Positions 14,564 to 53,499 of a DNA stretch of 64,000 nucleotides are shown in pieces. This DNA is from Octopus vulgaris. Its lineage: Eukaryota. The notes under the pieces are model-generated. The model was not told the origin of the DNA. It did not search any database and saw nothing but the letters and a program-made list of their open reading frames with translations. A program made the position numbers and the translations under genes. Location of the stretch: contig OX597840.1 of assembly GCA_951406725.2 (NCBI GenBank), forward strand, positions 19,530,001 through 19,594,000, read 5' to 3'. Each line of letters begins with the position of its first letter. Position 1 is the stretch's first letter.

Positions 14564-14967
14564 GCTCTGCCCCAGGCCCCATCCTCGACCCAGAAGACCT
14601 ACATGATTAAAGACATTCCCGGTCTGTTACAACCCATCCCGTCCTTTCGGCACAGTGTATCGAGGATAACATTACCCAATGTCCCTTTCCTTGTCGTTCT
14701 TCGGGCCCGGCTCAGCCCCGATCTTGTAGACCAGCAATCAAAGACATTCCAGTGTCTCCTTTTCTTTTGTAAGACGATGAGATTTGATTCTGAGGAATTT
14801 AGTCGGTGGAGCGCCCACGTGGATAACTCCGCCTGTTGACGGTCATATTGATATTGTTGTTGCTATGGCGACCAGTACTGGGTGCGATGTAATCGAGTAA
14901 CCGCCTGCCCCCAAGATTTCAAGCCTGGGGGTCAAAATTTGAAACGCGTGTCATCATTGTTATTACT

Positions 14968-15780
14968 GAGGCGGCAAGCAGGCAGAATGATTGACATGCC
15001 GGACAAAAATGCTTAGCATTATTTCGTCCGGCTTTACGTTCAAATGTCGCCGATGTCGACTTTGCCTTTCACTTTTTCAGGGTCCATAAAATAAATACCA
15101 GTTGAGCACTGGGGGTTGATGATATCGACTTGTCCCTCTCACCCCGAAATTGCTGGCCCTGTGCGAAATTTGAAATCGATATTTGGGCGATAAGTTGGTA
15201 GAATCGTTATCATGCCGGATAAGATGTTCAGCAGTTTTTCTTTCGGCTATGGACATTATGAGTTCAAATACCGTAAGGGGTCGACTTTGCCTTTCATCTT
15301 TTCAGACTGAATGAAATAAATACCAGTTAAGCACTGGGGTCAATAATATCGCCTTGCCCCCATCGTCCTTCTCCTCGAGGGGCGCCAAATTGCAAACCAG
15401 AATTTGAGCGACGATCTGGTAGAATTTGACGCCGGACGAAATGCTTAGCCGCATTTATTCCGGCTCTGGACAGTCTAAATTCAAATTCTGCAAGGAGTCT
15501 ACATTGCCTTTTCAGGGTCTTTTCAGGGTCTTTTCAGGGTCCATAAAATAAATACGAGTTTAGCACTGGGGTCGACGATATCGACTTAACCTTTTCCCTA
15601 CTATTGCTGGCCTTGTGCGAAAACTGGAAATCCTTGTTTTGGCGGCGAGTTGGCAGAATCATTGTTGCATCGGACAAAAATACTCGGCAGCATTTCGTCC
15701 GTCTTTACGTTCCGAGTTCAAATTCCGCCAAGGTCAACTTTGCCTTTCATCCTTTCGAGGTCGATAAAATAAAGTACCAG
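14968..15780 (+). mobile_element. Cluster of four old, diverged SINE family 2 copies in the same orientation
   Basis: Repeated ggc..gag.tggcagaat..gccggac.aaatgcttagc..gttcaaat..gactttgcctttca..ataaaataa.taccag..gcactgggg. Confidence 0.8.
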
Positions 15781-15794
15781 TTTTTTTGTTTAGT

Positions 15795-16570
15795 GTTTAC
15801 TTGTTTCAGTCATTTGACTGCGGCCATGCTGGGGCACCGCCTTGAAGGGTTTCAGTCGAACAATTCGACCCCTGGACTTATTTTTTAAAAGCCTAGTATT
15901 TAGTCTATCGGTCGAACACCAAAGTTATGTGTTTGCCGAATGCAAACAGACCATCACCGGTTGTCAAGTGGTGATGGGGAGGGGGACAAACACGCACACA
16001 CATATACGACGGGCTTCCTCCAGTTTCCGTCTACCAAATCCACTCACAAGGCTATAGTAGAAGACACTTGCCTAAGGTACCACGCAATGGGACTGAACCC
16101 CGAACCATGTGGTTGAGAAGCAAACTTCTTACCACTCAGCCATATATATATATATATATACTATACTTTACTCTTTTACTCTTTTACTTGTTTCAGTCAT
16201 TTGACTGCGGCCATGCTGAGCACCGCCTTTAGTCGAGCAACTCGACCCCAGGACTTATTCTTTGTAAGCCCAGTACTTATTCTATCGGTCTCTTTTGCCG
16301 AACCGCTAAGTGACGGGGACGTAAACACACCAGCATCGGTTGTCAAGCAATGCTAGGGGGACAAACACAAACACACAAACATACATATATATATACATAC
16401 ATACGACATACTTCTTTCAGTTTCCGTCTACCAAATCCACTCACAAGGCTTTGGTCGGCCCGAGGCTATAGCAGAAGGCACTTGCCCAAGATGCCACGCA
16501 GTGGAACTGAACCCGGAACCATGTGGTTGGTAAACAAGCTACTTACCACACAGCCACTCCCGCGCCTGTG
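15795..16570 (-). mobile_element. Two adjacent SINE family 1 copies (15795-16142, 16165-16570)
   Basis: Both match family 1 body and head. Confidence 0.9.
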
Positions 16571-26944: not shown

Positions 26945-28281
26945 AGCTGAAAAGATGATTGTCAGATGGAAGCAAGATCAGGAAAGTAAGACGAATAAGA
27001 CAAAACTTCAATATTTAGGGCCATAAACTTTTCCCGGGTGATTTAGGCTATATGTGAGCTTGCATTGCCGAGTAAGAGAAATAGCCCTATGATGGCCGCT
27101 TTTCTGCAAATATTTGTGCAAAGCTTCCAATTAACAATACTGATTATCTGAATTAACTGCTTCAATTTGGTTTAACGCTTCCTGATAGACAGCACCCTTC
27201 ATATTCTACAAAACATAAACTGTTTTCAGGTGTAGCCCTGCTTTGGGGATAGATTCTCCCTTTTAATTGTGCGCAGCCCTTGTTGTTTACGATGGATATG
27301 AAGATAGAGAACCTGCTTTTTCTCACTTGTGATGATTCTGCCCGAGAGAGGTTCGGGAGCAAGTTCACTCTTCAAAGAGGAGCAGAGGAAATCCCTTGAG
27401 GGGCAGAGGCAACCTACTGAGGAACCGTCAGGTGATGAGAGACCCACTGACCAAATTAAAACACTTGTCCTGGTTCATAAAGGTGTTATGTGATCGAAGT
27501 ACGACTTTGATCAGTTTGTTTTGAGATTTTCCTCGTCTACGGGTTTCAGAAGCTAAATTTCCCGTGTGAAACTGGCCAAACTATCTTTGGCATATCCGGG
27601 CACTTAAAGCTTCATTTCTGCACACAGAACGCATATTTCTTGCCATATCTATTGCTGAAGCGCCCATTTTTAATTCATATGATACGCAGTACCTGATCTA
27701 AACTGATTTTAAAAGGGTACCTCTGAAAAACCTAAACCTTGCGTATAATACGCAGGGGATTTTTAGGGGGCTGTCCCTCTGAAAAACCTAAACATTGTGT
27801 ATAATACGCAGAGGATTTTTAGCGGGCTGTACCTCTGAAAAACCTAAACCTTGTGTATAATACGCACCCCTTCTCTAACTTGAGTCAAGGAGTTCTATAT
27901 AACATCCTTGGTTTGTAAAACTGTATACGGTAACGTCCTTTATTATTATTGCATATATAACATAATGCAAACGTGTAGCTTTTTTGTGCATTTTGTTTGC
28001 AGAAAATAAAGAAATAACAGTAATAACGTTTAATAAATGTTGCTTACTGCAAGTTATGGATGACTCTTTTATGACTTCATTGCTTTAAGGCTTAGCTTAA
28101 GGTATTTTCGCGCCCGACATCACAAAATACGTCTGAATAAACATTGCCAGACAGCAAATAGAGACTCGGACATTGCTTAGAAAATATTTTTCATTTTTAA
28201 CCTCGTGTATAGTACGCATTAGGGATTTTGACCTTTAAATTTGGGGGAAAAAATGCGGATTATACTCGAGGATTTACAGTA
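26945..28281 (+). mobile_element. pogo/Tc2-like DNA transposon remnant with 56-bp subterminal tandem repeats
   Basis: Right end tgcggattatactcgaggatttacag-TA resembles TA-C(C/T)GTA..CG.GTATAA TIRs; 56-bp unit about 2.6 times at 27717-27866 carries the TIR-like gtataatacgca motif; left boundary uncertain. Confidence 0.55.
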
Positions 28282-35806: not shown

Positions 35807-35837
<31 letters not shown>

Positions 35838-35851
35838 GATCGATAGATATA

Positions 35852-36080
35852 TTTCTTTACTACCCACAAGGGGCTAAACATAGAGGGGACAAACACGGAC
35901 AGGCAAAAAGATGAAGTCGATTACATCGACCCCAGTGCGTAAATGGTACTTAATTTATCGACCCGGAAAGGATGAAAGGCAAAGTCGACCTCGGTGGAAT
36001 TTGAACTCGGAACGTAACGGCAGACGAAATACGGCAACGCATTTCGCCCGGCGTGCTAACGATTCTGCCAACTCGCCGAC
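35852..36080 (-). mobile_element. SINE family 2, full monomer
   Basis: tttctttactacccacaaggggctaaac..gattctgccaactcgcc. Confidence 0.9.
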
Positions 36081-36556
36081 CAACAGACAGACACATAGAT
36101 AGATACATACATACATACACGCTTACGTATACACATACATACATACAAACATACATCCATACATCCAGGACTGCAGGCATGCGTTTTTAATGCATTTTCG
36201 TAGATATGCACGCATATATACACACATGAACGTACGTACACAGATGTGTCGATGTGTGTGTGTGTGTGTGCGTGCGTGTGTGTGTACCCTTCTTGTGTGT
36301 TAATGAGTGTGTGTATATACTTGCAGAACAAATGATGTCTCTAAGCGCGCACACGCACACACACACGCACGCATGCACGGACGCACGCACGCACACGTGT
36401 ATTGATGTATGCAGTAGCCATTCTCAAGCGTGTTTATTACATGCACCGCAAAACAGGTTTATGCGATTGGCTTAAATTTCCTAAACTGTGATTGGTCTAA
36501 ATATGTGTGTAGAGAATGGCAGTGTGTTTATGTTTATATATATATATATGCTTATA

Positions 36557-38542: not shown

Positions 38543-38875
38543 CCGCATGTTTCAGTCGAAGTGGGCGGGTGCATGTATGTTATACATCTGTCTGCTTTTG
38601 TTTACAAACAGATTCCTTTTTTTTTTCTTGTCTTTCTTTGAGTCTTGCACAAGGTCAATAGTCTAAGCAAGAATGCGAATACGTAACGTGCCCCACCATC
38701 TACAAAACTCGGGTAGCTCACCCCTCGCACGCGGTCAAATCGTTACCAGCATACATATACAAAACTGCCCCCTATCGAACCCTGAGAAAAAGCAACCAGA
38801 AAAATAAAACTGATTAATCCATGAGATAAAACATTAATTTAAGAGACTGCAGTATCAAATTTCTAATTGCTTTTT

Positions 38876-39252
38876 TTTTTTATTTTATTTTATTTTATTT
38901 TATTTTATTTTATTTTATTTTATTTTATTTTATTTTATTTTATTTTATTTTATTTTATTTTATTTTATTTTATTTTATTTTATTTTATTTTATTTTATTT
39001 TATTTTATTTTATTTTATTTTATTTTATTTTATTTTATTTTATTTTATTTTATTTTATTTTATTTTATTTTATTTTATTTTATTTTATTTTATTTTATTT
39101 TATTTTATTTTATTTTATTTTATTTTATTTATTTTATTTTATTTTATTTTATTTTATTTTATTTTATTTTATTTTATTTTATTTTATTTTATTTTATTTT
39201 ATTTTATTTTATTTTATTTTATTTTATTTATTTTATTTTATTTTATTTTATT
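38876..39252. repeat. (ATTTT)n pentanucleotide array
   Basis: Direct reading. Confidence 0.97.
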
Positions 39253-45973: not shown

Positions 45974-47004
45974 ATAAAAAGCGATGACTGGCGGAACTGG
46001 TGTCACAGGTTATATATATTATGTGTGTGTGTGTGTATGTGTAAGTGTTTGTGTATACATATCTCTCTCACACACACATACACAAACGCACACACATACT
46101 GGTCAGGGCTTCCGTCAGCACATCTTACGTGGACAACTGAAAAGTCTACTCCTTCCTCACGGAGCAGAGGAGTGTTATGTTTGTTGTGTTTGTCTTTGCT
46201 CGTACTTGGATAAATCACTCAGGCAAGAAAGCACTTGCTTCTGCGACAAACCACTGCCATGCAGTTTTTTTCTCTCCCTCTCGAAGTTTAGTCATATTTC
46301 CCAGTATTCGTTGACAATGTTATCGGAAGAGTTGTCATAGATGGTTTTGTATGTGTCATGTAAGTTAATGTTTCTCTCCTTTTAAATTACATCATTTTTT
46401 TTTTTCTCATTTGATAGAGTTTGGTTGATTTTTTCCCCTCTTGTAACCTGCACTGCTAAGTTCAAAGTTAGTTTTCGGATGGGTGTTTGTCATTTGTCTC
46501 CTACAAGAAGCCACATTGGAATTTAAAAATTATGATATACCTAAAAACAGATTTAAAAATTTTTTGTCCACCCCAAGTATTGGAGCAAACGTCCATAAGT
46601 TGGATAGGTTCCATGCTCGAATATCGAATCGCTATAATAATTACACATGTTCAACAACAACAACAACAACAACAACAACATCAACAACATTGTGGTCTGA
46701 TTTAAGCACAGGGCCAAGAAAATTTGAGAGAAGGATGTTAATCGACTGGCGTTTTATTTTATAGTTCCCTAGTGGATGAACGGTAAAGTTGAACTCGCTG
46801 GGATTCGAACTCAGAATGTAAAGGTCGGAACAGATACTTGAAAGCAATTTTCCGATGCTCTACCGATTCTGCCACAAACACAAAAACAGGTGGAGTTTAT
46901 ATCAAAGGGAGATACTGTCACATTAAAAGATATAACAAAGGATAGAGAGAGAGAGAAATGAGAGAAATAAATTATTGGTTAATAAATAATTAGAATCCCC
47001 AATA

Positions 47005-47270
47005 GCGGAACAGCCTACTTGGGATAATTCAAGGTCAACCCTACACCAAAATTCCTGGATTACTCTGCCAACCACAAGGCATAGCAAAGTGCCCTCATCA
47101 AGTCCCTTTCTTCCTGCTTAGAAAAGCACGCTCAGAGCCGACCCTTTCAGTTTCACCAGTCTTGCTATTCTTGTCCTCCTTTTGATAAACAGACAAGAAG
47201 GCAGCACTGCCCCCTCTAACCTCACCTTCAAATGATATTTGAAGAAATTGATGAGGGCTTTTAAGGTACG
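47005..47270 (-). mobile_element. Diverged Tx1/L1-like LINE 3' fragment
   Basis: KALINFFKYHLKVRLEGAVLPSCLFIKRRTRIARLVKLKGSAL parallels the C-terminus at 57200-57340. Confidence 0.5.
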
Positions 47271-47329
47271 CATTTCGAGGGAAGGTGTTATCAATCCGTA
47301 AGAGACCGAGGCCTATATTATCGATCAGC

Positions 47330-48274
47330 GAGGCGGCGAGCTGGCAGAAACGTTAGCACGCCAGGCGAAATGCGTACTGAGTTCAAATTCCGCCGAGGTC
47401 GACTTTGTCTTTCATCCTTTCGGGGTCGATAAATTAAGTACCAGTTACGCACTGGGGTCGATGTGATCGACTGTATCCGTTTGTCTGTTCTTGTTTGTCC
47501 CTTCTGTGTTTAGCCCCTTGTGGGTAGTAAAGAAATAGGTATTTCGTCTGCCGCTACGTTCTGAGTTCAAATTCCGCCGAGGTCGACTTTGTCTTTCATC
47601 CTTTCGGGGTCGATAAATTAAGTACCAGTTATGCACTGGGGTCGATGTGATCGACTTAATCCGTTTGTCTGTTCTTGTTTGTCCCCTCTGTGTTTGGCCC
47701 CTTGTGGTTAGTATAGAAATAGGTATTTCGTCTGTTGTTGCGTTCTGAGTTCAAATTCCGCCGAGGTCGACATTGCCTTTCATCCCTTCGGGGTCGATAA
47801 ATTAAGTACCAGTTACGCACTGGGGTCGATGTAATTGACTTAATCCGTTTGTCTGTCCTTGTTTGTCCTCTTTGTGTTTAGCCCCTTGTGGGTAGTAAAG
47901 AAATAGGTATTTCGTCTGCCGCTACGTTCTGAGTTCAAATTCCGCCGAGGTCGACTTTGCCTTTCATCCCTTTCGGGGTCGATAAATTAAGTACCAGTTA
48001 CGCACTGGGGTCGATGAGATCGACTTAATCCGTTTGCCTGTACTTGTTTGTCCCCTCTGTGTTTAGCCCCTTGTGGGTAGTAAAGAAATAGGTATTTCGT
48101 CTGCCGCTACGTTCTGAGTTCATATTCCGCCGAGGTCCACTTTGCCTTTCATCCTTTCGGGGTCGATAAATTAAGTACCAGTAACGCACTGGGGTCGATG
48201 TGATCGACTGTATCCGTTTGTCTGTTCTTGTTTGTCCCCTCTGTGTTTGGCCCCTTGTGGGCAATAAAGAAATA
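47330..48274 (+). mobile_element. SINE family 2 pentameric concatemer (one head + five units of about 184 bp) with 16-bp TSD
   Basis: Junction aaagaaata|ggtatttcg at about 47538, 47722, 47906, 48091; tatattatcgatcagc at 47314-47329 and 48275-48290. Confidence 0.92.
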
Positions 48275-48872
48275 TATATTATCGATCAGCAACGGTTTAA
48301 GAAAAAACAAAAACAAAAAAAACAAAAAAAAAAAACAAGGGTCGACTTGAACGGAAATCGAACACTGGACGTCAAAAAAGAAAAGAAAACAGCTGAAGAA
48401 AACAGCAAAGGATTTTGTCATGTATTTTACTGAACGTTTAGAACATTCGAGAAGCGAATGCTGTAAATTGATTCGGGGATGAATGTATAGGAGAACGCTT
48501 GGTTGTTTTGCCCGAGTCGTCCTCTGGGGATTATGGGGAGAGGGTGGGGAGAGAGGAGGGGGGAGAGAAAGAAAGAGAGAACGTAAATTAGAAAAACATT
48601 GAAACTGCTTTGACTACTCAACTTCTCGATATAATTGCGAGTAAGGTCGTTGAAATCAGTTGAGATTTCGTCGTCCAAATTGCGAAAATATAAACAGGGA
48701 AGAAAGAGAATTGATGGCGTCTGTTGCAGTCAGCAGAATTATTATGAAAATAAAACCCGAGTGAATTAATTGATATTGCAATAGTTGGAGACGTTTGAGT
48801 TCGGTTCTGATCAAAGAATATATACATACAGACATAGAATACATGCATACATACACACACACACACACACAG

Positions 48873-53136: not shown

Positions 53137-53465
53137 GGGCGATGAGCTGGCAGAATCGTTAGCCCGCCGGGTGCAATGCTTAGCGGTATTTCGCCTGCCG
53201 CTACGTTCTGAGTTCAAATTCCGCCGAGATCGACTTTGCCTTTCATCCTTTCGGGGTCGATAAATTAAGTACCACTTACGTACTGGGGTCGATATAATCG
53301 ACTTAATCCGTTTGTCTGTCCTTGTTTGTCCTCTCTGTGTTTAGCCCCTTGTGGGTAGTAAAGAAATAGGTATTTCGCCTGTCTTTACGTTGTGAGTTCA
53401 AATTCCACCGAGGTCGACTTTGCCTTTCATCCTTTCGGGGTCGATAAATTAAGTACCAGCTGCGC
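53137..53465 (+). mobile_element. SINE family 2, head + about 1.5 units
   Basis: Same aaagaaata|ggtatttcg junction at about 53369. Confidence 0.9.
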
Positions 53466-53499
53466 ATATATATATATATATGGAAAAATATAATTTACA

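What the first reader, a model, noticed from the sequence alone, without database searches (positions are those of the whole stretch)
47314..48290. Pentameric SINE concatemer inside one 16-bp target-site duplication
One tRNA-like head is followed by five units of about 184 bp joined at aaagaaata|ggtatttcg, all between two perfect tatattatcgatcagc copies. The same junction occurs at an independent locus (about 53369), so a multimeric form is itself being mobilised. The units differ from each other while the TSD is perfect, which favours insertion of a pre-existing multimer over later local expansion. Possible mechanisms (inference) are a multimeric master gene, iterative template jumping, or reverse transcription around a circular RNA as proposed for retrozymes. 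I found no hammerhead in the unit.
Basis: partly seen in the sequence, partly recalled or inferred. Interest (0 to 1): 0.7.

Follow-up and report, generated by a model that had tools for sequence, protein, structure and literature searches.

The report
Five-unit octopus jumping-gene chain
A short octopus mobile element sits here as one promoter head plus five chained copies of its body inside one insertion scar; clams and reptiles have similar chains, but here the same precise joint recurs at a second site, so chains were probably copied and pasted as a unit.

Summary
One tRNA-like head (47330-47376) and five bodies (to 48274) of an Octopus SINE lie between two identical 16-bp repeats. Unit 1 is only 161 nt (25-nt deletion), and 3 of 4 junctions match the quoted 18-mer. 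The same junction occurs at 53369 with unrelated flanks; a monomer sits at 35850-36081. Better evidence: units differ within the array (6.1%) about as much as from the 53k unit (6.8%), they are mosaic, and none has a Pol III terminator. One circle copied five times fits poorly, and no ribozyme was found. Best reading: an inherited junction, Pol III read-through and LINE-driven insertion of a multimer, later reshuffled by exchange between units. Local growth from a dimer is not excluded (one extra parsimony step). New clue: the junction lies in the loop of the head hairpin, and the SINE's last 6 nt complement unit nt 3-8. TSD-(SINE)n-TSD arrays are published for blood clam, so this is a variant of a known kind.

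The parts
47314..47329 (+). left copy of the 16-bp target-site duplication
   Evidence: only two copies in the window; chance control
47330..47376 (+). single tRNA-like head with A-box-like motif at 47342-47352; ends at a 25-nt deletion that removes the 3' arm of the head hairpin
   Evidence: alignments; box patterns are recalled consensus, 1 mismatch; ARAGORN finds no tRNA gene
47377..47537 (+). unit 1 (161 nt; unit positions 24-184), with B-box-like motif at 47381-47389
47538..47721 (+). unit 2 (184 nt, headless, keeps the B box)
47722..47905 (+). unit 3 (184 nt); the most divergent unit, shares 3 variants with the 53k unit
47906..48090 (+). unit 4 (185 nt, 1-nt insertion)
48091..48274 (+). 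unit 5 (184 nt); ends at the normal SINE 3' end, with no poly(A) and no terminator
   Evidence: first T4 run downstream is at 48413
48275..48290 (+). right copy of the target-site duplication
53138..53466 (+). second locus: intact 47-nt head, full unit 53185-53368, identical junction at 53369, second unit cut after 98 nt at an (AT)n run; no clear TSD
35850..36081 (-). monomer of the same subfamily (head + one unit, same 3' end); defines the basic 232-nt element

Best explanation
This is a multimeric insertion of a tRNA-derived Octopus SINE subfamily (monomer about 232 nt). At some point in the family's history the 3' 184 nt were duplicated in tandem, joining the exact 3' end to the loop of the head's long hairpin (inferred; the 6-nt complementarity between tail and stem probably guided or was left by that event). 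No unit carries a T4 terminator (shown), so Pol III starting at the single head can read through any number of units (inferred from known Pol III termination). A partner LINE reverse transcriptase then copies the RNA by target-primed reverse transcription, leaving one head and one 16-bp TSD (TSD shown; enzyme inferred, partner not identified). Every unit ends in the normal 3' end, so priming at any unit end would give a ladder of 1, 2, ... n-mers from one source (inferred). Unequal exchange, gene conversion or RT copy-choice between the homologous units made the mosaic and may have changed the count, in the source array or here. The insert was probably already a heterogeneous multimer; that it was exactly five units is not shown.
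For: One TSD around head + 5 units. Identical junction at a second locus with unrelated flanks; 2 of the 3 copies of this subfamily in the window carry it. 0 T4 runs in the 5 units and in both 53k units; first T4 at 48413. Within-array divergence 9.9/161 (6.1%) vs 11.0/161 (6.8%) to the 53k unit, so units hardly cluster by locus. All 4 most-parsimonious trees pair unit 3 with the 53k unit. Four gametes in 5 of 6 pairs of informative sites, which needs exchange or recurrent mutation. Precedent for the architecture: TSD1-(SINE)n-TSD1 in blood clam (PMC11481361); SINEs that amplify as dimers (PMC10702118 Discussion).
Against: Only two junction loci, 5 kb apart on the same strand, so local gene conversion could have carried the junction. 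The 53k copy lacks a clear TSD and is 3'-truncated. The likelihood tree has 0 of 4 inner branches supported, and array monophyly costs 1 step. The two 53k units share a variant at unit position 10 that units 2-5 and the monomer lack, one site of clustering by locus. Absence of T4 is expected of any active SINE body (18% of shuffles of one unit also lack it), so it permits read-through without proving it. The exact junction was not seen in any of the 20 hits (17 printed, 2; P0005 not read), and a junction-spanning 54-aa query found no candidate.
Confidence: 0.55

Rival explanations
1. A dimer (one inherited junction) inserted, and most of the array grew in place by unequal crossing-over and gene conversion, as proposed for SINE-derived satellites.
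For: The perfect TSD has P = 0.30-0.36 under full post-insertion divergence. Array monophyly costs 1 extra step. Units 1, 2, 4, 5 share a state at position 112, and units 1, 2, 5 one at 136, that both outside copies lack. Orthologous squamate sSat loci differ in unit number in 26% of pairs (74% equal; PMC10702118). A small in-place tandem duplication is visible in an older copy at 15508-15541.
Against: Unit 3, the outlier, is in the middle, with related units on both sides. By inspection, no simple crossover history gives the {1,2}, {1,5}, {2,5} pattern. Within-array divergence nearly equals between-locus divergence. Unit 1 lacks the 23 nt that start units 2-5, so its deletion would have to be later.
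Confidence: 0.2
2. The junction is made anew during retrotransposition. The 3' end of one SINE RNA pairs with the 3' arm of the head hairpin of another, and the RT jumps there repeatedly, ending on a full-length RNA that supplies the head.
For: The last 6 nt are the exact reverse complement of unit nt 3-8, the only such site in the monomer; P = 0.002 in shuffles, noticed post hoc. The junction lies in the hairpin loop. Units are heterogeneous, as expected from different templates. Template jumps are documented for R2 and L1 (PMC3414825).
Against: Four jumps to the same nucleotide in one event is demanding. In full-length monomers the head hairpin outcompetes the tail (pairing probability 0.00 in 2 of 2). 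Three diverged tandem copies seen only as spurious translations (P0007, P0011, P0020) join tail to unit with different amounts of head in between, so joins are not always at this site. One inherited junction is simpler.
Confidence: 0.1
3. Serial self-targeted insertion (not raised by the first reader). New copies insert into the hairpin loop of a resident head; the 5' end is resolved by homology, so one head and the original TSD remain. The last, 5'-truncated round left the apparent 25-nt deletion.
For: Each junction is an exact SINE 3' end, as TPRT gives. The left break of the head deletion lies 2-3 nt from the junction site. Private changes per unit are 1, 3, 4, 2, 5 from 5' to 3', in the predicted direction (rho 0.7, permutation p 0.12).
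Against: The gradient is not significant. It needs four hits in one copy, while 0 of 10 older relatives aligned show such an insertion. There are no internal TSDs, and the outer target is unique sequence. The deletion also fits slippage on a 3-nt microhomology.
Confidence: 0.07
4. RNA-level route. The transcript is cut in the anticodon-like loop and the headless 184-nt RNA, whose ends pair, is ligated (RtcB-like) into concatemers or circles, which are then reverse transcribed.
For: In the headless unit the ends pair with probability 0.14-0.96 across 5 units tested (MFE), leaving 2 unpaired 5' nt next to the 3' end. RtcB circularises retrozyme monomers (PMC7229834) and joins U6 to L1 RNA before retrotransposition (PMC6789731 abstract).
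Against: No ribozyme. The unit folds no better than shuffles (z = 0.0). One circle predicts a star of near-identical units: 4 shared minority sites had P = 0.003 (uniform) to 0.065 (CpG x10) in simulation (two of the four are adjacent and may be one event, which weakens this). Unit 3 shares 3 sites with the 53k unit (p 0.0017, one of 10 comparisons). The head would need an extra step. Ligation of different monomers is not excluded by these tests.
Confidence: 0.08

Closest known systems
TSD1-(SINE)n-TSD1 arrays of the blood clam Scapharca broughtonii (Martelossi et al. 2024, PMC11481361; passages and Discussion read)
   Same: Mollusc tRNA-SINE; first unit with complete head, then head-truncated repeats, all inside one TSD; arrays of 4-15 units.
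   Different: There the first and internal units also have truncated tails and only the last is complete; here every unit ends at the full 3' end. Their Discussion attributes tandem arrays to unequal recombination; the passages read do not report a junction shared by separate loci or test mobilisation as a multimer.
SINE-derived satellites (sSat) of squamates (Vassetzky et al. 2023, PMC10702118; part 1 of 5, Discussion and passages read)
   Same: Tandem repeats of part of a SINE (70-290 nt) with SINE termini at the array ends; variants with both termini exist; the same unit recurs across loci.
   Different: [quoted passage not shown] Here the array is short, TSD-bounded and has 3 middle units.
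Dimeric/complex SINEs and SINE multimers (SINEBase PMC3531059; Dip and B2 multimers PMC8466645; passages)
   Same: Amplify as, or occur in, multi-unit form; Dip multimers reach eight units.
   Different: Those multimers are described as full-length SINE units; here the extra units lack the A-box half of the head and the count varies (1, 2, 5). SINEBase does not count internal duplications as a new family.
Non-LTR retrozymes (Cervera and de la Pena 2020, PMC7229834; passages)
   Same: 150-450-bp tandem monomers, under 50% GC, TSDs longer than 4 bp, present in molluscs.
   Different: Defined by a type I hammerhead and self-cleaved circles; this element has none, and has a Pol III head present once.
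Octopus SINE families of Ohshima and Okada 1994 (seen only as a reference entry and through citing passages)
   Same: tRNA-derived Octopus SINEs; this element likely belongs to or near one of them, or to the tRNA-Deu class that PMC8967140 calls a main octopus SINE component.
   Different: It may already describe the repeat.

Membership tests
tRNA-derived SINE | tRNA-like head with Pol III A and B boxes | tested here: met
   A-box-like and B-box-like motifs within 1 mismatch of recalled consensus in 4 of 4 heads scanned; cloverleaf degenerate, 0 tRNA genes called
tRNA-derived SINE | short, interspersed, non-coding repeat | tested here: met
   16 profile hits at E < 1e-8 among 17 listed, on both strands across the window; fragments appear in named Octopus bimaculoides gene models
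tRNA-derived SINE | variable-length TSD | tested here: met
   16 bp at the pentamer; unclear at the other 2 of 3 loci (7 and 8 nt of simple repeat)
tRNA-derived SINE | Pol III transcription, 100 or more copies, partner LINE tail | not testable with these tools
   no RNA data or octopus genome; no RT domain in 15 of 15 ORFs scanned, most picked from 159 listed
TSD1-(SINE)n-TSD1 array (blood clam type) | one headed unit, head-truncated repeats, single outer TSD | tested here: met
   against the description
TSD1-(SINE)n-TSD1 array (blood clam type) | first and internal units usually tail-truncated | tested here: not met
   all 5 units carry the full tail
SINE-derived satellite (sSat) | tandem repeat of part of a SINE, unit shorter than the SINE | tested here: met
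   184 of 232 nt
SINE-derived satellite (sSat) | at least four middle monomers (working cut-off), long subtelomeric arrays | tested here: not met
   three middle units; chromosomal position unknown
non-LTR retrozyme | type I hammerhead ribozyme in each monomer | tested here: not met
   Rfam; motif scan
non-LTR retrozyme | expressed as monomeric circular RNA | not testable with these tools
   needs RNase R RNA-seq or divergent RT-PCR
MetaSINE / Deu / named Octopus SINE family | central conserved domain matching the published consensus | tested here: inconclusive

The most novel reading that the evidence does not exclude
The SINE makes multimers by a built-in, ribozyme-free, structure-guided route. 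Its 3' end pairs with the stem next to an anticodon-like loop, and loop cleavage plus RtcB-type ligation, repeated RT jumping, or self-targeted insertion joins tail to loop at one fixed nucleotide again and again. An abundant octopus SINE would then be a tRNA-headed counterpart of retrozymes, with 184-nt circles or concatemers as intermediates.
Probability: 0.2. Interest if true: 0.75.

Novelty: new variant of a known kind. Interest (0 to 1): 0.38.

Why it matters
If multimers with a fixed junction are retroposed, SINE-derived tandem arrays can be seeded across a genome by RNA intermediates rather than grown separately at each site. That bears on how SINE-derived satellites with the same unit appear at many loci, which the squamate and bivalve papers explain by recombination. 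Octopus genomes are SINE-rich (about 40% of the TE content, PMC8967140), so the question is directly testable by counting units per TSD. It also affects repeat annotation, since one insertion is counted as five. If only local expansion is at work, this is an ordinary short SINE-derived tandem repeat.

Tried and rejected
Outside loci: a tail-pattern scan of the bacterial/archaeal genome set found 0; a core-pattern scan found 1 locus, with a 23-nt match (plus a 12-nt hit) and no further SINE sequence, taken as chance. Viral and metagenome contig sets were not searched and no eukaryotic genome set was available, so the genome-wide unit distribution is unchecked. Spurious-ORF searches: 2 hits, 20 hits, 0 candidates for a junction-spanning 54-aa query. 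They place the family in Octopus but show no exact junction; the output was cut in the middle, and P0003 and P0005 were left out of it. Ribozyme or structured-RNA family: none. Assembly artefact: rejected on 4.3-10.3% unit divergence. Segmental duplication between the 47k and 53k loci: no flank match. LTR/TRIM-like reading: rejected, since the TSD is 16 bp and there is no LTR-internal alternation (passages of PMC10886601 gave nothing relevant). Two-unit higher-order repeat: TRF's 369-bp period matches no better (92% vs 93%). A recalled resemblance of the left flank (47118-47312, minus) to a LINE ORF2 end was not supported (0 Pfam families; 0 of 32 candidates). Literature: searches (listings only, top rows) and passages of PMC8967140, PMC5804259, PMC12988792, PMC4824008 and PMC4758252 showed no description of this octopus multimer. 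Ohshima and Okada 1994, Albertin 2015 (not held), Repbase/Dfam entries and bioRxiv supplements were not seen and may describe it.

Full report
Context. The window is microsatellite-rich DNA (224 TRF rows) with no tRNA gene and no Rfam family at gathering score. A spurious reading frame of the repeat matches named Octopus bimaculoides gene models (80% identity over 41% of the query; two more named entries), so the element is an Octopus SINE and the window is very probably octopus. The species was not determined. A profile search lists 17 hits, 16 at E < 1e-8. Only 7 carry this subfamily's tail: five units at 47k, one at 53k and a monomer at 35850-36081.

Observation. The 16-mer occurs twice in the window, at 47314 and 48275; a comparable non-low-complexity match arose in 5 of 20000 random pairs. 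Between the copies lie a head (47330-47376) and five bodies. Units 2-5 start at 47538, 47722, 47906 and 48091 and are 184-185 nt. Unit 1 is 161 nt because 25 nt across the head/body boundary are deleted relative to the other two loci. The quoted 18-nt junction is exact at 3 of 4 joints and its 14-nt core at 4 of 4; it recurs at 53369. The flanks of the 47k and 53k loci are unrelated. The 53k copy has a 98-nt second unit ending in (AT)n and no clear TSD. No ribozyme was found.

Anatomy. The monomer is head (47-48 nt) plus unit (184 nt). The A-box-like motif is in the head and the B-box-like motif in the unit, so the repeats have B boxes but no A box (recalled consensus patterns). Between the boxes is a long hairpin, and the junction falls in its loop. 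The last 6 nt of the SINE are the reverse complement of unit nt 3-8, the only such site in the monomer (P = 0.002 in shuffles, post hoc). In a headless unit the ends pair (0.14-0.96 in 5 units); in full-length monomers they do not (0.00 in 2 of 2), because the head hairpin wins. The unit as a whole is no more structured than shuffles (z = 0.0). There is no T4 run in the pentamer or the 53k copy; the first is at 48413. The monomer and 5 of 7 older copies examined have one. Pol III stops at T4 or longer (established knowledge), so read-through of the whole array is possible but not shown.

Did the units arrive together? The perfect TSD says little: P = 0.36 at the mean unit divergence, 0.30 at the unit-3 split and 0.54 if only private changes are post-insertion. 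Over the 161 shared columns, units differ by 6.1% among themselves, 6.8% from the 53k unit and 9.7% from the monomer. Shared minority variants group units {1,2}, {1,5} (two adjacent sites) and {2,5}, and 5 of 6 site pairs show four gametes. Under a star model (one template copied five times), 4 shared sites have P = 0.003, 0.015 or 0.065 with no, 5x or 10x CpG bias. I counted the adjacent pair as two sites, which overstates this; by inspection none of the sites is in a CpG. Unit 3 matches the 53k unit at 3 of its 7 minority sites (p 0.0017, one of 10 comparisons). This disfavours a single circle. It does not exclude stepwise local growth: two of those three states are shared with the monomer too and may be ancestral, the likelihood tree has 0 of 4 supported branches, and array monophyly costs 40 steps against 39. 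The two 53k units also share one variant absent from units 2-5 and the monomer.

Mechanism. Shown: one head, one TSD, a fixed junction at two loci, no terminator, mosaic units. Inferred: a single old tandem duplication made the junction; sources with two or more units are read through by Pol III; a LINE RT inserts them and can start at any unit end; exchange between units shuffles variants and counts (0.55). Rivals: a dimer inserted and then grown locally (0.2); recurrent RT jumping guided by tail/stem pairing (0.1; jumps documented in PMC3414825, passages); loop cleavage and RtcB-type ligation or circles (0.08; PMC7229834 passages; PMC6789731 abstract); serial self-targeted insertion into the head loop (0.07). 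The last explains why the head deletion breaks 2-3 nt from the junction site and predicts the weak gradient of private changes 1, 3, 4, 2, 5 (p 0.12), but 0 of 10 older relatives show such a hit. In the first two readings a junction-bearing form was mobilised at least once (together 0.75).

Outside evidence is thin. The bacterial/archaeal genome scans gave 0 loci and 1 chance locus. Protein searches with spurious frames gave 2, 20 and 0 hits. None of the 19 hit sequences read shows the exact junction. Three unnamed, diverged ones (P0007, P0011, P0020) show tail-to-unit tandems with other amounts of head between, which suggests that tandem joining recurs in this family at variable points; their organisms are unknown.

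Comparison. Martelossi et al. 2024 (PMC11481361; passages, Discussion, supplement motif search) describe TSD1-(SINE)n-TSD1 arrays in a blood clam with one complete head and head-truncated repeats, differing in having truncated internal tails. Vassetzky et al. 2023 (PMC10702118; part 1 of 5, Discussion, passages) describe SINE-derived satellites, some with both termini, whose orthologues vary in unit number. Multimeric SINEs are common in rodents (PMC8466645, passages). The element resembles a retrozyme only in layout and fails the hammerhead test. The named Octopus family could not be assigned. Nine literature searches showed no description of this multimer, but the 1994 octopus SINE paper and repeat databases were not seen.

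Verdict. Real, and largely as described. It is a new variant of a known kind. The shared loop-apex junction with tail/stem complementarity is the part worth following. Interest 0.38; the bold reading (a built-in, ribozyme-free multimerisation route) has probability about 0.2 and would merit 0.75.

Noticed in passing
window 14860-16100: Four old headed relatives of this SINE (14969-15790), plus by eye the tail of a fifth just upstream, lie head-to-tail in about 900 bp; a different repeat follows, by recall a CORE-type Octopus SINE in reverse. It suggests insertion next to earlier copies.
   Followed up: partly
window 15508-15541: An 11-bp unit repeated 3.1 times inside an old SINE copy: a small in-place tandem duplication.
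   Followed up: no
window 48275-48288 and 35836-35849 (minus): The sequences just 3' of the pentamer and of the monomer look alike (both AT-rich and followed by the same 7-nt stretch), hinting at a target preference; n = 2.
   Followed up: no
window 53369-53466: The second unit is cut at its 3' end where an (AT)n run starts, which ordinary TPRT truncation does not give; later deletion or internal priming.
   Followed up: partly
window 46754-46878 (minus): A very old relative keeps a near-canonical B box, supporting the tRNA origin of the head.
   Followed up: partly
window 47118-47312 (minus): The left flank reads, by recall, like a decayed LINE ORF2 end; Pfam and homologue searches did not support this.
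   Followed up: yes
P0002, P0003, P0004: Named Octopus bimaculoides protein models contain translated antisense fragments of this SINE family; P0003 has one in front of what reads, by recall, as an aminopeptidase. Probably annotation artefacts or exonisation.
   Followed up: no
window 27717-27866 and 38873-39252: A 56-bp tandem repeat (2.7 copies, 92%) and a 76-copy, 98% pure pentanucleotide run.
   Followed up: no
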